A stretch of 64,000 nt of DNA from Octopus vulgaris (taxonomy: Eukaryota), in NCBI GenBank assembly GCA_951406725.2, contig OX597825.1, positions 65,410,001-65,474,000 of the forward strand, in the 5' to 3' direction. Made by a program: the position numbers and the translations under genes. Positions 1 to 26,940 of this stretch are shown in pieces. The notes below the pieces were generated by a model. It saw only the letters and a list, made by a program, of their open reading frames with translations. It searched no databases and was not told the DNA's origin. How positions within the stretch are numbered: position 1 is the stretch's first letter; each line of letters begins with the position of its first letter.

Positions 1-61
1 ACGCACACACACATATACATACACATACTCACTCACATTCACATGCACACTTATATATTAT

Positions 62-398
62 TCTTTTATTCTTTTCATTCATTTGACTGCGACCATGCTG
101 AAGCACGCATTTAGTCGAACAAATCGACTCCAGGACTTATTCTTTGTAAGCCTTGTACTCATTGTATCGGTCTCTTTTGCCGAACCGCTACGTTACGGGG
201 ACGAAAACACACCAACATCGGTGGTCAAGCGATGATTGAGGGACAAACAGATGCACAAATATATACACGTATACATGCATATATATATATATATGTATAG
301 ACAAGTGAAGACACTTGTACAAGGTGCCATGCAGTGGAATGAACCCAGAACCATGTAGTTGGGAAGCAGGATTCATAAAATACAACCACACCTGCGCC
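62..398 (-). mobile_element. tRNA-derived SINE family A (internal (TA)n)
   Basis: Reverse complement of ggcgcaggtgtgg...catggttctgggttc...gcagtcaaatga. Other copies: about 5320-5700(-), 7755-8110(-), 33781-34164(+), 37195-37566(-), 51555-51890(+). Confidence 0.8.
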
Positions 399-12933: not shown

Positions 12934-13420
12934 TAGTTTTATTTTTATAGCGTGCTTTCACTTCACTACCGAGCGCAGCTCTGTGTGCCTTGGGTATGTG
13001 CTGTGATTTGTTGTGATGCTCTGATGGTTATTGTATGGAAAGTGTTCTGCGTAGGATGTGCAGTGCCTAGTAGTGCAATTTTCTGTATGTTATATGTGTT
13101 TGTAAGTCCTGGTGTTTTTGTTATGTATTTGTCTGAATATTTTTTTATCATGCCTAATGCACCTACTATGATAGGAATTGTTTCTGTTTTCAGGTTCCAC
13201 ATTCTAGTTATCTCTATTTCCAGGTCTTTGTATTTTGAGAGTTTCTCCATTTCTTTTAGAGACACGTTGTCATCTGCCGGTATTGATACATCAATTAGAA
13301 AGCATTTTTTTTTTTTCTTCATGATCTCTGACATCTATATCTGGTCTGTTGGCCTTAATTTCTCTATCTGTGTGTATCGGCATATCCCAGAGTATGGTTG
13401 CTTTCTCGTTTTCTGTGACC
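12932..13420 (-). mobile_element. 3' fragment of R4/Dong-type non-LTR retrotransposon (restriction-like endonuclease)
   Basis: CFLIDVSIPADDNV...EKLSKYKDL...PIIVGALG...IQKIALLGTAH; (TTA)n on both sides. Confidence 0.85.
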
Positions 13421-15815: not shown

Positions 15816-16205
15816 GGTGGAGGCGCAATGGCCCAGTGGTTAGGGCACCGGACTCGCGCTCATAAGATCGCGGTTTCGATTCCCAGACCGGGCGTTGTGG
15901 GTGTTTATTGAGCGAAAACACCTAAAAGCTCCACGAGGCTCCCCCAGGGGATGGTGGTGATCCCTGCTGTACTCTTTCACCACAATTTTCTCTCACTCTT
16001 ACTTCCTGTTTCTGTTGTACCTGTATTTCAAAGGGCCGGCCTTGTCACTCTCTGTGTCACGCTGAATATCCCCGAGAACTACGTTAAGGGTACACCTGTC
16101 TGTGGAGTGCTCAGCCACTTACACGTTAATTTCACGAGCAGGCTGTTCCGTTGATTCGGATCAACCGGAACCCTCATCGTCGTAACCGACGGAGTGCTTC
16201 CATCC
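15816..16205 (+). mobile_element. tRNA(Arg)-like SINE (family B, alternative 3' tail), young copy
   Basis: 11-bp TSD attcagtgaga (15805-15815, 16206-16216); (catc)n tail. Confidence 0.9.
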
Positions 16206-18300
16206 ATTCAGTGAGACCCTGGACCCTATGATTCCAAGGATATTCAAGTCATTTAAACATTTGAATCCGCTAGTATGCTTTAGTACGCCTTAGCAGGTTG
16301 AGTTTCATTTTACTATAACCCATAGAAGATGCAAAATAGGTTGGCCACATAGTTTTGAGCACACAGTTTTACATCTGAAAAATAATGATTGTTCTACTAA
16401 TTAGCTAGCCATAAACACAAAGCCATGAGGTTGCCCACTTATGCGTCTTCTAAGGGTATAGTCAAATGAAAGCGCATCCGCTAACGCCTACTAGAAGGTT
16501 CAAAGGGTTAAAACACACAAGCCATTATAATTACATTTCGTTTATTTCGTCACAGCACAATCTATTATAAAGTATCAAAATTCGATTAACATAAAGTTTA
16601 GGGGATTTTTAAAATTATGAATCTAATTTAACCGGAAGTTACGACATTGACATGCCATAATTTCCATACAAAGGCAATAAAAGGGTGATGGATGCTTGCC
16701 AAGAAGAACTCAGGCAACAACTTGGGTCTATCGATGCTTTATTTTCGTCATATTTTCACGAACAGATGCAGCAAAACAAATTTAAAGATTGTGAAATATC
16801 TAATCGTAAATCTCATTTCATGCATCAACGGCTGTCATGTTTACCCGTAAAAGTGATTGTTTTCATCTGATATAAAATGTGTAGGAGGTTTATATTATAT
16901 AAACTATATACACAGATGTGGCTGTGTGGTTAAAATGCATGCTTTCCAACCATTGCCCTGTAATTTGAACAAGGATTTTCTACAATAAATCCGAGTCAAA
17001 CAAAGCCGTGGGAGTGATTTTAGTAGACAGAAACTGACAGAAGCTCATGGAGTTTTTATGCCCTTTTTTAACATCATAAGATAGTTGTAAACGATCTTCA
17101 CTGTCATACAAGCGATGTCGTTCGTTATAAGCCTTCCATTGAAAAACGTTTGACCATGAAAATTATTACATTGTTTACAAACAAGTAAGAGTTGAGAATA
17201 GGAAAGGCGTCGTTTTGTAGAAAATCTGCCCTAACACATTCCGTCTGATCCATGCGAGTATGGAAATACGGACGTTAAAAAATAATGAATGAGGATATTG
17301 TGTAGACCGATTATGCTATATAGATTGTTTACATGAAATTATCGGATTTCTTAGTCGTCACTACCAGTCAATTTGCATTCGGTTTGTGAACCCCTGACGT
17401 GCATATTCACACAAACAATTTTCGCTGCATACTTTTCAAACATGAAATATGAGCTACAGTGGTGATGTTCTCATTGACCTGGACACAGAATTGCGACGAA
17501 ACCTTTTCACACGGTTTAATCTATAATATTGCAATTCAATCTGTAATATAGTGTATATACTTTTAAACCATATGATAGAATGTACTTTAAGAACTACTAT
17601 AAAAATCATTGTAGCAGTTCTGTGAGTGTTTTTAAGTGGTTAATATGTGACTGCCATAAAGTAATTGTTTGTATACAGACTATGTTTTTAATACGAATGA
17701 ACAAACATTATTATGCCAGTATTCAAATGTTCGTGTGGGTATGTCTATTTGCCAAGAAATATGTATGTGAATATGTGTGTTTGTATACGTATGTAAATAT
17801 ACATTAGGATAAACATTTATTTAATCGACGCAATTGTGTCCAAGAAGCAGCAGTTTGACCTTGCGTGACTAGAGGTTACTGACCATGCCTGAAATTATTG
17901 TTTAGGCTTGGCGCATATATGCATGTATGTGAGGAAGTATGTGTGCGTTGTGCGTGAAAGTGTATCACTGTATACACATACATGGATGCGTATATTGGGA
18001 ATGGAACTATCTGTTGTATATATCCATGAATATTTATTTAGATAAACATTCACAAATGGTTATTTCCACTTTTTTCTGTCTCACTTAACACATACACTAT
18101 TTTTCATTCACACATACACGCGCGCGCGCACGCACATGCACAAACACGTACGCACACACACATAAATGTACGTGTATAAATGTGCATATACATATACATG
18201 CATACAGGCATCTTTATGTATATGTATATATATATATGTGTGTGTGTGTAAGTGTAGATATACAATGTGTGTGTGTAATATATAAGTATATATATATATA

Positions 18301-19034
18301 TACGCACACTTACATGGTTATAGTATAATTTTTAACGTATCGACCGGTTTTGCAATCGCTATTCATGATACAATGTTTAATTTATATGAAAATATATTTT
18401 TTCTTAAGAAGAAAATGGGTCCATGTTGTTTATAATGAGATTCACGAGTGAATGATTTTACAAGTTGACAAGTAAAGGGAGGTAATTGGTTGTTATTATT
18501 GTTATTGTTGTCTGTAAGGGAGATAACTGTTTAGGTTTTGGGTGGGGAAAAATATGTGTACAGAAAGGAGACAGGTTTTAAAAAAAGTGGGGGCCTTGTT
18601 TACTAGGGGATTTATGTACAGTGGTTTGTCTTTGCACTGGTAGAAAGGGAAGACTGTAAAATTTGGTTTGAAACATTTTTCTATGTGTTCACTAAGAGGT
18701 ATTTGTCTGTATTGCGGGAAACAGATTTGCTCCTTATGCAGGTAATTCTCTTCCTCAAAATTAAACCTTGTTTACTAAATTAGGTTCTCAGAGGAGACTT
18801 TTTAATTGTGAACCTCTGTACAGTGATGTAATACATTTTAACCGTTGGGTTCGTGGTTGTTTTGTAAAGCTTCGCATTTGTTAGTAGTCTCGTTAGCGAT
18901 TTGTCTTGTTTTTTGCAAAATTGGTTATGCGTGCTTATTCAGACGCGTTTTGTATTTTTCAATGAAAAATGAATAGCGATTGCGAAACCGGTCGATACAT
19001 TAAAAATTATACTATAACCATCTAAGGGTGCGTA
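18301..19034. repeat. 66-bp inverted repeat enclosing ~600 bp
   Basis: 18301-18366 is the reverse complement of 18969-19034 with few mismatches. Confidence 0.85.
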
Positions 19035-19143
19035 TTTTCCGTTTTTATTTTTCTTATATATATATGTAAGCGTTTAAGAGTCCGTAGGTTAGGAAAAAAA
19101 GCACTCGTATATCTGTCAATAAAGTGGGTGTATTAATCGAAGT

Positions 19144-19382
19144 GTACAGTGTTATATAACCATTACGGCCGATCTTACAAATCGGTTTGACACTAGGGGT
19201 TCAAAGGATTTTTGGTAACTGTCCGATTATGTAACCCATCAGAGGTAGTCGTTATGGAATTAAATATAGTGATCTCTGATGAGCGCAGGGTTACATGATC
19301 GGACTGTCGCTTAACACTCCGTTAAATACCGAGTGCGAAACCGATTGGTAAGATCGGCTGTAATGGATATATAATACTGTAC
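19144..19382. repeat. Fold-back inverted repeat (~100-bp arms) containing the hammerhead
   Basis: gtacagtgttatataaccattacggccgatcttacaaatcggttt pairs with aaaccgattggtaagatcggctgtaatggatatataatactgtac; gtccgattatgtaaccc pairs with gggttacatgatcggac. Confidence 0.85.
19271..19355 (+). ncRNA. Type I hammerhead ribozyme motif, intact core, long loop 2
   Basis: GATCT-CTGATGA-GCGC-(46 nt)-GTGC-GAAAC-C-GATT-G-GTA-AGATC; stems I, II and III all pair. Confidence 0.8.
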
Positions 19383-19794
19383 GCTTGATGAATATATATT
19401 TATATATATACATACATATATACATATACATGTATGTGCATACACACATTGTTGTGTAGGTGTATATACATATATATGCGTATGTGCATGTATATATTTT
19501 AGGAGAGGGGAAAAGAGAGAGTGCAAGGGAGAGACAGCAAGACACATCGTGAGTTAGACCATTTTTTTTTTGTTTGCATGTGTATGTGTCTGTGTGTCTG
19601 TGTGTGATATTTTGTAGCTTCCTTCGACAATGCATTATAAACAACATGGACCCATTTTCTTATTAAGAAAACATATATTTTCATATAAATTAAACTTTAT
19701 TCGGCTTAAAACTACACTTAGCACAGAAGCAATTGTTCAATCACGTCTATTTCACATATCTCACAACAACACCAACAACAACAACAACAATAAG

Positions 19795-21099: not shown

Positions 21100-21486
21100 T
21101 TTTCCGTAGGATGTGTGCAGTGCCCAGTAGTGCAATTTTCTGTATGTTATATATATTTGTAAGTTCTAGTGATTTGTTATGTATTTGACTGAATATTTTT
21201 ATATCATACCTAATGCGCCCACTATGATACGAATTGTTTCTGTTTTTAGATTCCACACTCGAGTTACCTCTATTTCCAGGTCTTTGTATTTTGAAAGTTT
21301 CTCCATTTCTTTTAGAGAAACGTTGTCATCTGCTGGTATTGATACATCAATTAAAAAGCATTCTTTTCTTGTATCTCTGACAACTATATCTGGCCTATTG
21401 TCCATAATTTCTCTATCTGTGTGTATTGGCATATCAGCGAGTATGGTTGCTTTCTCGTTTTCTGTGACCTTTTCTGGTGTGTGCCT
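21100..21486 (-). mobile_element. Second R4/Dong-type RLE fragment
   Basis: MPIHTDREIMDNRPDIVV...LIDVSIP...KYKDL...IQKIALLGTAHILRK; abuts (TTA)n. Confidence 0.85.
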
Positions 21487-21628: not shown

Positions 21629-21669
<41 letters not shown>

Positions 21670-21770
21670 AGATGAAGACGATGATATTATTTGTCATAAG
21701 GGTATGATTTGGAGGGGATATTAGAAGGATATAAAAATATTAATTATTAATTTTCTTTTGTTTTCTATAG

Positions 21771-21989
21771 GTTATATGGCGGAAAGCCTCCGATCCGAAC
21801 CCGCTTACGGTATCAGAAGAGCTTTATGTTGAAGACAGTACGTACAGTGTTCACAGAGTACCTTCTGCACACGAATGGAACCTCCAAATCAAAAATGTTC
21901 AGTGCAAACACAACGGTGTATAATAATGCCAAGTAATAATAATGAAGATCAGAAGACGATGTATTATCTTGTCATAAGGGTATGATTTG
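21771..21989 (+). CDS. Exon encoding the C-terminal part of Ig domain 1 of a Dpr/ZIG-8-like two-Ig protein; 3' end disrupted
   Basis: Acceptor ttttcttttgttttctatag|GTT and donor TTG|gtaagt. Translates VIWRKASDPNPLTVSEELYVEDSTYSVHRVPSAHEWNLQIKNVQCKHNGV**CQV, with the V-x-W, WNLQI and G-x-Y-x-C-Q-V pattern of Dpr/ZIG-8 Ig1, but TAA TAA where Y-E is expected. Absent from the ORF track. Confidence 0.85.
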
Positions 21990-22060
21990 GTAAGTTAGTT
22001 TGTGTTTATTTTGTTTTGTTTTGTTTTTTTACCTCTTTACCATGTCTCTCAATTTATACT

Positions 22061-22438
22061 GTGGAGGCGCAATGGCCCAGTGGTTAGGGCAGCGGACTCG
22101 CGGTTTCGATTCCCAGACCGGGCGTTGTGAGTGTTTATTGAGCGAAAACACCTAAAAGCTCCACGATTCTCCGGCAGGGGATGGTGGTGATCCCTGCTGT
22201 ACTCTTTCACCACAACTTTCTCTCACTCTTACTTCCTGTTTCTGTTGTACCTGTATTTCAAAGGGCCGGCCTTGTCACTCTCTGTGTCACGCTGGATATC
22301 CCCGAGAACTACGTTAAGGGTGCACGTGTCTGTGGAGTGCTCAGCCACTTACACGTTAATTTCACGGGCAGGCTGTTCCGTTGATTCGGATCAACCGGAA
22401 CCCTCATCGTCGTTACCGACGGAGTGCTTCCATCCATC
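22061..22438 (+). mobile_element. tRNA(Arg)-like SINE (family B, alternative 3' tail), young copy
   Basis: TSD caatttatact (22050-22060, 22439-22449); near-identical to 15816-16205; lies 70 bp after the Ig1 donor. Confidence 0.9.
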
Positions 22439-25300
22439 CAATTTATACTATTCCTGTATGCGTTTATAAATTTACTGCAAATACTTTGATGTGCATCCAT
22501 AAAGCTTTTAAAATAAGCCATGCAAACCAGGTGATTTGTCATTCGCACATGCATCAATAAATGTATTTTAGCTGATTCTGAATGCTCTACGAGTGGGCCG
22601 TTGAGAGAGGCATTAACGTACATCGACTCTGGTTTTTGCCATCATTAAACAGCCGATCAAATTGGGTTTTTTACTCTATCATGTCCCTTCCACTCAGTTC
22701 TTTGAAATTATTTTGCATCTGAGACCTATTTCTTTATTGCCCACAAGGGGCTAAACATAGAGGGTACAAACAAGGACAGACAAACGGATTAAGTCGATTA
22801 CATCGACCCCAGTGCGTAACTGGTACTTAATTTATCGACCCCGAAAGGATGAAAGGCAAAGTCGACCTCGGCGGAATTTGAACTCAGAACGTAACGGCAG
22901 ACGAAATACCACTAAGCATTTCGCCCGGCGTGCTAACGATTCTGCCAGCTGAGACCATACAGATTTAGCCAATTTTATAGGATCTGTGGGTAGACTGTTG
23001 ATATAGGCACGAACGTACACCTTTGAGAAGCAACTGCTCAAAGTGACTTTGTTACCTTATCACATCCCTGACATCCGATTCATCAAATGGATTTTGCGTC
23101 TAAAAGCATGCACCTTTGCCCAAACAATGCAGTCCTCATGTTTCATGCCACAGAAAGGATTGAGTGCTATGTTTGGTGCTAGTCCATCAGCCTCAAAGTC
23201 TTTCTTAATTACATCTTCTAATGCAGGTGGCACGTAAAATGCACCAATCCGACCGTGGCCGATGCCAGCCTCGCCTGGCACCAGTGCAGGTGGCACGTAA
23301 AAAGCACCCACTACACTCACGGAGTGGTTGGCGTTAGGAAGGGCATCCAGCTGTAGAAACATTGCCAGATAAGACCGGAGCCTGGTGCAGCCTTCTGGCT
23401 TCCCAGATCCCCGGTTGAAACGTCCAACCCATGCTAGCATGGAGAACGGACGTTAAACGATGATGATGATGATGATGAATCTACTGAAAAAAAATAAAAT
23501 GGCGTCCTTGTATGGCAGTACTTCAATGACTGAAACCAATAAAAGCGTTACATAAACTCTGTTCAGGTTTACTTGACCAGAGCTAACCTGTGGCTCTAGT
23601 CACATTATTCAGTCTTGAATTAATTACTTAGGCTGTTCACGAATGACACTTCCTATGTGGGATATGAACTTCTAAGTCATCAGACATCGTCTTTTCTAAA
23701 CTATTTTAAGAATGTTTTCTGCGCGTGATTTCGATAGTAACTATGAAACATGTATCAAACAAATTCTTTAAAATCTTACTATGAAAAGAACACAATTATA
23801 TTTCTTGTAAATTACTTATAAAGAAAAGGCATTAGCGATTTACTAATTGAAACTAGTGCAACAATGATTGAATTACGAAGATATATTAATATGTTCCATT
23901 TTTTGAAAATGTCTCTCACAAAATAGCTGTAAATGTAAAACGGTTTCGAGGCAAAACACACAAAACGGAATGTCTCCATTTAAACTTATTAGAAATAAGT
24001 TAATAGCATAAGTCTAATGGAAAGAATATTTTATCGATGTTGAAGAATTATTTCAGTTTGCCTAGATTAATTGATATTTTCTGTGAATATTGGTTATTTC
24101 CTAATAATCTTTCATCATCTAAAATAGATGTTTAATACATATGCCTATATGTACATGTGTGTGTGTGTGTGTGGTCTCTCCTGCGAAGATTTAGCAATCA
24201 TATTTTTTCTTTATTAAATTTTATTTGTTGCTATGTATGTATATATATATATATATATATATTTTTAACAATATTCTTTAAATCAATTTATTTTGCAAAA
24301 TGAATATTAAAAGCATTATGGAATTACTTAGTAAAGAATTCTTTGCACTCGGAAAAGGAAAGTGACACTGTGTACTATATAAGTATTTGCAATAAATTCT
24401 ACCGACGTTGTCTATTATTAAAGCCTTGAAGACTATTTTACAATAAAACACTTATTTATCATTCTTTGTTCTGTGGAAAGTAATTCAATCTAAGAATGAA
24501 GATAACTCTTTGATGTGCAAGAAAGAATAACAAAATGGATGACAACAACAGTTTAATCATTTTTTTTTTTTATTATTTTCAGCACGCATAGTTTTACAAT
24601 ACATTACAGAGATTAAATAGTCTGAGATCCGTTAGGTAATAGAAATATGTAGAGAAGTAGAACGAAGTGGCAATCATTGTTGAGCAGTGGACAAAGCGCT
24701 GTCATATTTAGTTAGAACGCTAAGCCTTTGTTTTGATTTCAAAATCAGACGAGGTCAACTTTCACAGTTCTTGTTCTTACTTTTATTGTTTAGTCCCAGG
24801 TCAGCTCTGATCAAGCATAACTATGGGCAAAATTATTCTCAGGAGAAAAAGATAGTGTGTGCTTGTGAGTGTGCTTTACAAAATTTTAACGGATTTGTCA
24901 ATTTTGGTCTCTTGAACAAGATGGCGATGGAATGGCAGAATCACTGGAGCAACAGAAGAAAACGTTTGCTGAATGTTGTAATAGCCATTTTGAATCTGAG
25001 TTGAAATTCTCTTTGAGTTTCACAGTTCACTGTTAACGTGAATAGTGAGGAACAATATAACTAAATATTGTCGCTCCCGTCTACTCAAAAAATTTTTTTC
25101 GCCATTAAAAGATCAAGAAATTAAATCTATTTATCCATATTTTAGGTGCAAGCGTGGCTGTGAGGTTAAGAAGTTTGCTCTGCGCCCACATGGTTTCGTG
25201 GTTCAGTCCCACTGCATGGCAGTTTTGGGAAAATGTGTCCGACTATACACCCAGACTGAACCGACCTATGAATTTCGTAGGCAGAAACAGCGTAAACCCA

Positions 25301-26919: not shown

Positions 26920-26940
26920 ACAAACCTCGAAATGATCCAG
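26920..26940 (+). CDS. 21-nt microexon, Ig1-Ig2 linker (xKPRNDP)
   Basis: Polypyrimidine tract ttctatttccattttcag|ACAAACCTCGAAATGATCCAG|gtaaga. Phase 1-1, no stop, joins in frame to the Ig2 exon (G+CA = Ala). Confidence 0.75.

What the first reader, a model, noticed from the sequence alone, without database searches (positions are those of the whole stretch)
19271..19355. Intact sense-strand type I hammerhead ribozyme with a 46-nt loop 2 upstream of the Ig1 exon
Seen: all conserved core nucleotides (CUGAUGA, GAAAC, GUA cleavage triplet ending at 19350) and three pairing stems (GAUCU/AGAUC; GCGC/GUGC; ACC/GGU). Loop 2 is long and has its own hairpin (ttaac-actcc-gttaa) and a tcgg/ccga pairing. 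Known: type I hammerheads occur in Penelope-like elements and retrozymes. Inference: it is on the same strand as the Ig gene, 2.4 kb before an internal exon, so it probably lies in the pre-mRNA and could cut it.
Basis: partly seen in the sequence, partly recalled or inferred. Interest (0 to 1): 0.8.

Follow-up and report, generated by a model that had tools for sequence, protein, structure and literature searches.

The report
Transposon hammerhead relic in octopus intron
The hammerhead ribozyme motif is really there, but it is one of many decaying end-pieces of an octopus Penelope-like retrotransposon, and a mirror-image copy just upstream is predicted to pair with it and keep it from cutting the host gene's RNA.

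Summary
The type I hammerhead at 19271-19355 is real: core and three stems are present, and 300 shuffles gave 0 hits. It is the right arm of a ~325-bp fold-back insertion (19066-19390) whose left arm is a broken antisense copy. Longer genomic copies continue into the 3' UTR, GIY-YIG endonuclease and reverse transcriptase of a Hydra-clade Penelope-like element (DKT, CxCx5C, no CCHH, (TA)n targets), a sister of Hydra-1_Obim. The insert is therefore a 5'-truncated pseudo-LTR with its inverted copy and tail, a described PLE layout. It lies on the sense strand of a 116-kb intron of a zig-8-like Ig gene. In that pre-mRNA the upstream arm is made first and is predicted to sequester the ribozyme by about 40 kcal/mol, so cutting is unlikely. 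Copies are old and decaying: 18 of 35 unbiased copies keep all core bases, so an intact core is unremarkable. The 46-nt loop 2 is family-wide and longer than in listed Hydra hammerheads (3-10 nt). A younger neighbouring PLE carries a hammerhead-like motif with an A3-U8 core, which is more unusual than the finding itself.

The parts
19271..19355 (+). Type I hammerhead motif, all 11 conserved core bases intact; predicted cleavage between 19350 and 19351
19287..19332 (+). 46-nt domain II insert ('loop 2'); family-wide in length; in the family it extends stem II, and that extension is damaged in this copy
19340..19349 (+). Stem III, self-complementary over 10 nt (two G-U); duplex -12.4 kcal/mol versus -0.9 as a hairpin, fitting dimer cleavage
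19274..19390 (+). Right arm: inverted, 5'-truncated pLTR copy ending at the short 3' end (about 47 nt after the cleavage site in the family)
19131..19250 (-). Left arm: pLTR copy with a broken hammerhead (7-nt deletion at core/stem II, changed stem II and stem III); 20 of 111 compared positions (18%) differ from the right arm
19251..19273 (-). Fold-back junction: pLTR sequence upstream of the left arm's core; it supplies the 5' strand of this copy's stem I; junction differs from copy to copy
19066..19130 (-). 65-nt 'tail' present on one arm only, ending at the long 3' end; in a near full-length copy it runs on to the ORF start about 120 nt further
19054..19065 (.). (TA)n target tract, left; shared with the neighbouring younger PLE
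19391..19420 (.). (TA)n-rich tract, right
21771..21990 (+). Downstream exon of the zig-8-like two-Ig gene; in this assembly its 3' part has two in-frame stops and a frameshift

Best explanation
This is the hammerhead of a Hydra-clade Penelope-like retrotransposon's pseudo-LTR, left in an intron as a short fold-back insertion, and it is likely inactive where it sits because its antisense mirror arm is predicted to pair with it. Shown: the motif, the fold-back, the link of the family to an RT-endonuclease ORF, two discrete 3' ends, (TA)n targets, decay of copies, and the intronic sense position. Inferred: the element's RT started at two internal sites downstream of the hammerhead (giving a short end and a tailed end, as shown in vitro for Poseidon); it copied only about 200 nt to a preferred 5' boundary, probably the transcription start; and a second, inverted copy of the same template was joined at a microhomology. 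Inferred: in the element's own RNA the ribozyme cleaved tandem transcripts, probably as a dimer or with help from the element's protein. Predicted: in the host pre-mRNA the insert forms a ~110-bp imperfect hairpin instead of a ribozyme.
For: Both-strand matches at the same places genome-wide; 20 aligned fold-backs with varying junctions and a one-sided tail. Upstream of longer copies: 3' UTR, GIY-YIG endonuclease and RT with DKT, DFYPSI, YRDD and CxCx5C. L073 has inverted pLTR + truncated body + pLTR. L078 runs from the tail into the ORF. 3' ends cluster at +36..52 (23 of 30) and +118..128 (5 of 30); 15 of 30 5' ends fall at -25..-41. Arms of one insertion share subfamily letters (48 shared versus 25 shuffled mean, maximum 40). 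In-context folding: hammerhead fold is 40-43 kcal/mol above the hairpin, against 1.6-1.9 for the arm alone; the core is already paired at prefix 19300. Decay: CpG columns 26-36% changed; 18 of 35 copies found without using the hammerhead keep all core bases and 3 of 35 pass core plus stems. Layout matches PMC8557442, PMC4209133 and PMC11167929.
Against: Core positions change less than other non-CpG positions even in the unbiased set (19 of 350 versus 270 of 2878; 31.7 expected, P about 0.01) and between paired arms (17 of 194 versus 285 of 1714, P=0.004). I read this as selection in source elements, but some selection on inserted copies is not excluded. This copy folds closer to the active form than five other good copies (1.6 versus 3.5-16.9 kcal/mol) and has an 11-bp stem I. 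The same core is present in two public contigs. Folding is a 37 C equilibrium model without proteins or editing. No Pfam hit on three short ORF fragments: the clade call rests on motifs and a by-eye comparison, not on a tree.
Confidence: 0.85

Rival explanations
1. The copy has been co-opted as a conditional intronic ribozyme of the zig-8-like gene, opened when the hairpin is destabilised (editing, helicases, or transcription starting inside the insert).
For: Sense strand in the intron; core intact while the mirror arm is broken; strong private stem I and the smallest gap to the active fold among six copies; no core or stem change in two public contigs; precedent in amniote introns (PMC6155905).
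Against: 40 kcal/mol sequestration; about half of all copies keep the core and roughly a tenth pass the strict test; this arm is 14.6% from column majority, above the 11.8% median; the contig comparison has only 3 differences, so no power.
Confidence: 0.05
2. It cleaves a small fraction of pre-mRNA through kinetic misfolding or pairing with another copy, without consequence, because a cut intron can still be spliced co-transcriptionally (recalled knowledge).
For: The arm alone is within 2 kcal/mol of the active fold; stem III can dimerise; the left arm can form its own hairpins.
Against: The core pairs with the upstream arm as soon as it is made; metazoan PLE hammerheads cleave poorly or not at all as monomers (PMC4209133) and the anole one needs protein (PMC11167929).
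Confidence: 0.07
3. It is a non-LTR retrozyme monomer or a MITE-like palindromic element that moves as a unit.
For: Short, non-coding, dispersed, many copies, inverted arms.
Against: Junctions differ among copies and the loop lies in either orientation relative to the tail; single-arm copies are common; copies continue into an RT-endonuclease ORF; no head-to-tail monomer array in the loci examined.
Confidence: 0.03

Closest known systems
Hydra-clade Penelope-like elements, esp. Hydra-1_Obim of Octopus bimaculoides (Craig et al. 2021, PMC8557442)
   Same: RT then C-terminal GIY-YIG, DKT, CxCx5C linker, CxxC/CxH around E and N, (TA)n targets, type I hammerhead near the 3' end. About 65% RT identity (98 of 151, counted by eye between the supplement's protein and decayed copy L078; not a tool result).
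   Different: Different 3' end and hammerhead: Hydra-1_Obim has an 8-nt loop 2, and all 26 listed Hydra rows have 3-10 nt; this family has 46 nt, a longer 3' UTR and a clear pLTR with tail.
PLE pLTR hammerheads and inverted 5'-truncated copies (Cervera and de la Pena 2014, PMC4209133; Frangieh 2024, PMC11167929)
   Same: Dispersed single motifs from truncated elements, pairs on opposite strands 100-700 bp apart, small palindromic helix III, one-sided tail from two RT start sites.
   Different: Tail about 65-80 nt rather than 30-40; much larger domain II; 3-bp stem III.
Co-opted intronic type I hammerheads of amniotes (RECK, CTCL, DTNB; PMC6155905)
   Same: Sense-strand type I motif in a host intron.
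   Different: Those are conserved across whole classes; this one sits in a recognisable transposon copy with an antisense arm and shows no demonstrated conservation.
Non-LTR retrozymes (bioRxiv 10.64898/2026.07.22.740005)
   Same: Type I hammerhead in a short non-coding repeat related to PLE pLTRs.
   Different: No tandem monomer organisation seen; inverted arrangement; direct link to an ORF.

Membership tests
Type I hammerhead ribozyme | Conserved core CUGANGA / GAAA / UH | tested here: met
Type I hammerhead ribozyme | Three helices around the core, helix I open | tested here: met
   87.6% of cells paired in 25 copies versus 22-42% for slid controls
Type I hammerhead ribozyme | Covariation among copies | tested here: inconclusive
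   7 of 21 pairs with a double change, 5 of 500 shuffles reach it; mostly CpG-type changes, and the tool warns relatedness can give this
Type I hammerhead ribozyme | Rfam model match | tested here: not met
   the 46-nt insert is the likely reason (inference)
Type I hammerhead ribozyme | Self-cleavage at the predicted site | not testable with these tools
   needs an in vitro assay
Hydra-clade PLE | Single ORF, RT followed by C-terminal GIY-YIG endonuclease | tested here: met
   (decayed copies L065, L073, L078)
Hydra-clade PLE | DKT in place of DKG | tested here: met
   L065 reads FSDKTK
Hydra-clade PLE | CxCx5C linker; CxxC and CxH around E and N; no CCHH | tested here: met
   13, 13 and 14 of 20 loci by loose patterns, full linker shown in 6; no CCHH seen by eye
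Hydra-clade PLE | N-terminal RWK motif | tested here: inconclusive
   only one copy (L078) reaches it and reads RCK at the aligned place
Hydra-clade PLE | Insertion into (TA)n | tested here: met
Hydra-clade PLE | Phylogenetic placement of RT | not tested
   reference proteins exist only in a paper supplement; compared by eye
Non-LTR retrozyme | Head-to-tail tandem monomers each with a hammerhead | tested here: not met
Co-opted intronic hammerhead | Conservation of this locus beyond neutral expectation | tested here: inconclusive
   two contigs, 3 differences over 249 nt, none in core or stems

The most novel reading that the evidence does not exclude
This one copy has been tuned into a gated ribozyme in a neural Ig-adhesion gene: a strengthened stem I makes it nearly ready to fold, and the antisense arm holds it shut until A-to-I editing or a helicase opens the hairpin, letting it cut the 116-kb intron.
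Probability: 0.04. Interest if true: 0.75.

Novelty: new member of a known kind. Interest (0 to 1): 0.24.

Why it matters
As it most likely stands it matters little: it adds an octopus Hydra-clade PLE family with an unusually large hammerhead domain II, and genomic support for two RT start sites and same-template fold-back insertion. It also shows that a sense-strand intronic ribozyme can be neutralised by the transposon's own inverted arm. If the gated-ribozyme reading were true it would link cephalopod RNA editing to ribozyme control of a neural gene. The neighbouring family with an A3-U8 core offers a natural test of the 3-8 core pair.

Tried and rejected
Rfam scans: no hammerhead hit. Free folding of the motif with short flanks is not better than shuffles (z -1.24), and RNAalifold recovers stem III and distal stem I but not the hammerhead fold. 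Pfam on three short ORF fragments: 0 families. Sequencing runs: no RNA holder listed; two runs guessed to be RNA showed no listed piece spanning the locus, only short pieces that may be other copies; this is no evidence either way on transcription or editing. One search mislocated the second core half; its statistics were discarded and redone. The first core-conservation test (P=4e-9) used copies found by the hammerhead itself and is biased; one search replaces it. Earlier-findings look-ups returned nothing.

Full report
Observation. The motif is as described: stem I 19271-19275 with 19351-19355, core 19276-19282, stem II 19283-19286 with 19333-19336, GAA 19337-19339, stem III 19340-19349, cleavage after 19350. 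A descriptor requiring the core and all three stems finds this single hit in the window and none in 300 shuffles on both strands. Rfam does not detect it.

Host and gene. The Ig exon at 41175 matches proteins named zig-8-like (Octopus vulgaris) and cell adhesion molecule 2 (O. sinensis) at 98-99%. Exons of this gene lie on the plus strand at C12:65315598, 65431771 (window 21771), 65451166 and 65722912, so the motif is sense within a 116-kb intron, 2.4 kb before the acceptor. In this assembly the 21771 exon has two in-frame stops and a frameshift where the O. sinensis protein is intact. Its 3' part resembles a stretch 290 nt upstream, so an assembly error is plausible but untested.

A genome search with 19130-19380 gave 80 matches from 40 scored of 1774 first-look candidates, at the same places on both strands: the repeat is a fold-back. 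In the window the left arm (19131-19250, minus strand) is a copy of the right arm with a 7-nt deletion at the core and changes in stems II and III, followed by a 65-nt tail and a (TA)n tract. Twenty aligned fold-backs have different junctions, with the loop in either orientation relative to the tail, so they formed independently (inference). The two arms of one insertion share subfamily letters (48 shared non-majority letters in 20 pairs; shuffled mean 25, maximum 40 of 1000), which fits a common template.

Parent element. A single-arm query (1904 candidates, 40 scored) returned copies that extend upstream into a 3' UTR and a GIY-YIG endonuclease. Of 20 loci fetched by the endonuclease alone, 11 have the hammerhead unit or part of it about 500-900 nt downstream. 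L073 shows inverted pLTR, truncated body and pLTR; L078 is near full length and its tail runs on to the ORF start. The ORF has DKT, DFYPSI, YRDD, CxCx5C and CxxC/CxH motifs and no visible CCHH, the features of the Hydra clade (PMC8557442 section 11). By eye it is about 65% identical in RT to Hydra-1_Obim from that paper's supplement, but its hammerhead differs: the 26 Hydra rows there have loop 2 of 3-10 nt, and two spike-moss PLEs have 29 and 35 nt. The 46-nt spacing is family-wide; in the family it partly extends stem II (88% of cells paired over 10 pairs), and this copy has damaged that extension.

How the insertion arose (inferred). In 30 single-arm-query loci, 3' ends fall at +36..52 (23), +69/+77 (2) or +118..128 (5) after the cleavage site, and 15 5' ends fall at -25..-41 from the core. 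Two 3' ends match the two internal RT start sites and tail shown for Poseidon (PMC11167929). The 5' cluster lies at a CAGTC word resembling the arthropod initiator (recalled, not tested), which suggests copying to the RNA's 5' end. Inverted 5'-truncated copies and one-sided tails are described for PLEs, as are hammerhead pairs on opposite strands.

Does it cut the pre-mRNA? Alone, the arm is 1.6-1.9 kcal/mol from the active fold; with the upstream arm it is 40-43 kcal/mol away, and the core is paired before the 3' half is made. Metazoan PLE hammerheads are weak as monomers. Stem III here is self-complementary (duplex -12.4 kcal/mol), fitting dimer action in the element's tandem RNA.

Is the intact core special? 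Among 80 arms found by the hammerhead, 46 keep all 11 core bases and 9 pass a strict core-plus-stems test. For an unbiased set I took 68 loci found by the endonuclease or UTR, dropped 8 duplicates or previously found ones, kept 46 of 60 with the UTR end, and counted the 35 spanning both core halves: 18 keep the core and 3 pass the strict test. Median mismatch from column majority is 11.8%, this arm 14.6%; on the clock quoted in PMC13282606 that is roughly 25-35 million years, inflated by CpG decay. Against my reading, core columns change less than others (19 observed, 31.7 expected, P about 0.01; 8.8% versus 16.6% between paired arms), and this copy has the smallest gap to the active fold among six tested. 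The first is expected if source elements were under selection for the ribozyme; neither shows host use. Two public contigs cover the locus with 3 and 4 other letters, none in core or stems, too few to test.

Literature seen. PMC8557442: passages, section 11, supplement search and part 2 of 59. PMC11167929 and PMC4209133: parts 1-2 of 4. bioRxiv 10.64898/2026.07.22.740005: part 1 of 5; its supplements are closed. PMC13282606 and PMC6155905: passages. PMC3088659: passages and section 8. A search for 'hammerhead ribozyme' with 'octopus' listed 4 papers, none on this family by title or abstract start; PMC13282606 has no 'ribozyme' or 'hammerhead' in its main text. Repbase and that paper's repeat library were not seen and may already hold the family.

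Side finding. The adjacent element (about 18300-19060) is a second, younger PLE (copies 97-98% identical over 121 nt) with a CCHH-type endonuclease and CX4CxxC linker, Neptune/Nematis-like. Its pLTR has a hammerhead-like motif with A at core position 3 and U at 8 in all 38 arms that matched the pattern (some arms counted twice from overlapping loci), a 2-bp stem II and a palindromic stem III. U3-A8 is reported in nature; two searches for A3-U8 found nothing relevant. Activity is untested.

Verdict. A real hammerhead motif, a new member of a known kind, most likely a silenced transposon relic (0.85). Interest 0.24.

Noticed in passing
window 18300-19060 (cores start at 18366 minus, 18969 plus); L136-L165: Young, high-copy Neptune/Nematis-like PLE whose pLTR hammerhead-like motif has A3-U8 in place of C3-G8 in all 38 pattern-matching arms. 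Both window arms are damaged. Two literature searches found no natural A3-U8 report. Deserves its own look.
   Followed up: partly
window 19054-19065: Two different PLE families end tail-to-tail in the same (TA)n tract.
   Followed up: partly
window 21920-21990: zig-8-like exon has two in-frame stops and a frameshift, and resembles 21645-21712; intact in O. sinensis. Assembly error or a null allele.
   Followed up: partly
window 26920-26940: 21-nt micro-exon of the same gene (DKPRNDP); the gene may span about 1.1 Mb on C12 if the N-terminal match at 64627921 belongs to it, with several paralogues on the same chromosome.
   Followed up: partly
window 19633-19698: Third fragment of the younger PLE's pLTR, inverted to 18372-18437 (95%), so another inverted pair brackets the hammerhead.
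   Followed up: no
window 12966-13420 and 21100-21480, minus strand: 3' fragments with a restriction-like endonuclease motif (recalled as Dong/R4-type non-LTR), next to (TAA)n tracts.
   Followed up: no
window 15817-16210 and 22062-22440: Two close copies of a SINE-like repeat of about 390 nt with a tRNA-like head (by eye).
   Followed up: no
L091 and window 19237: The same 7-nt deletion at the core/stem II border occurs in an unrelated copy, perhaps recurrent through microhomology.
   Followed up: no
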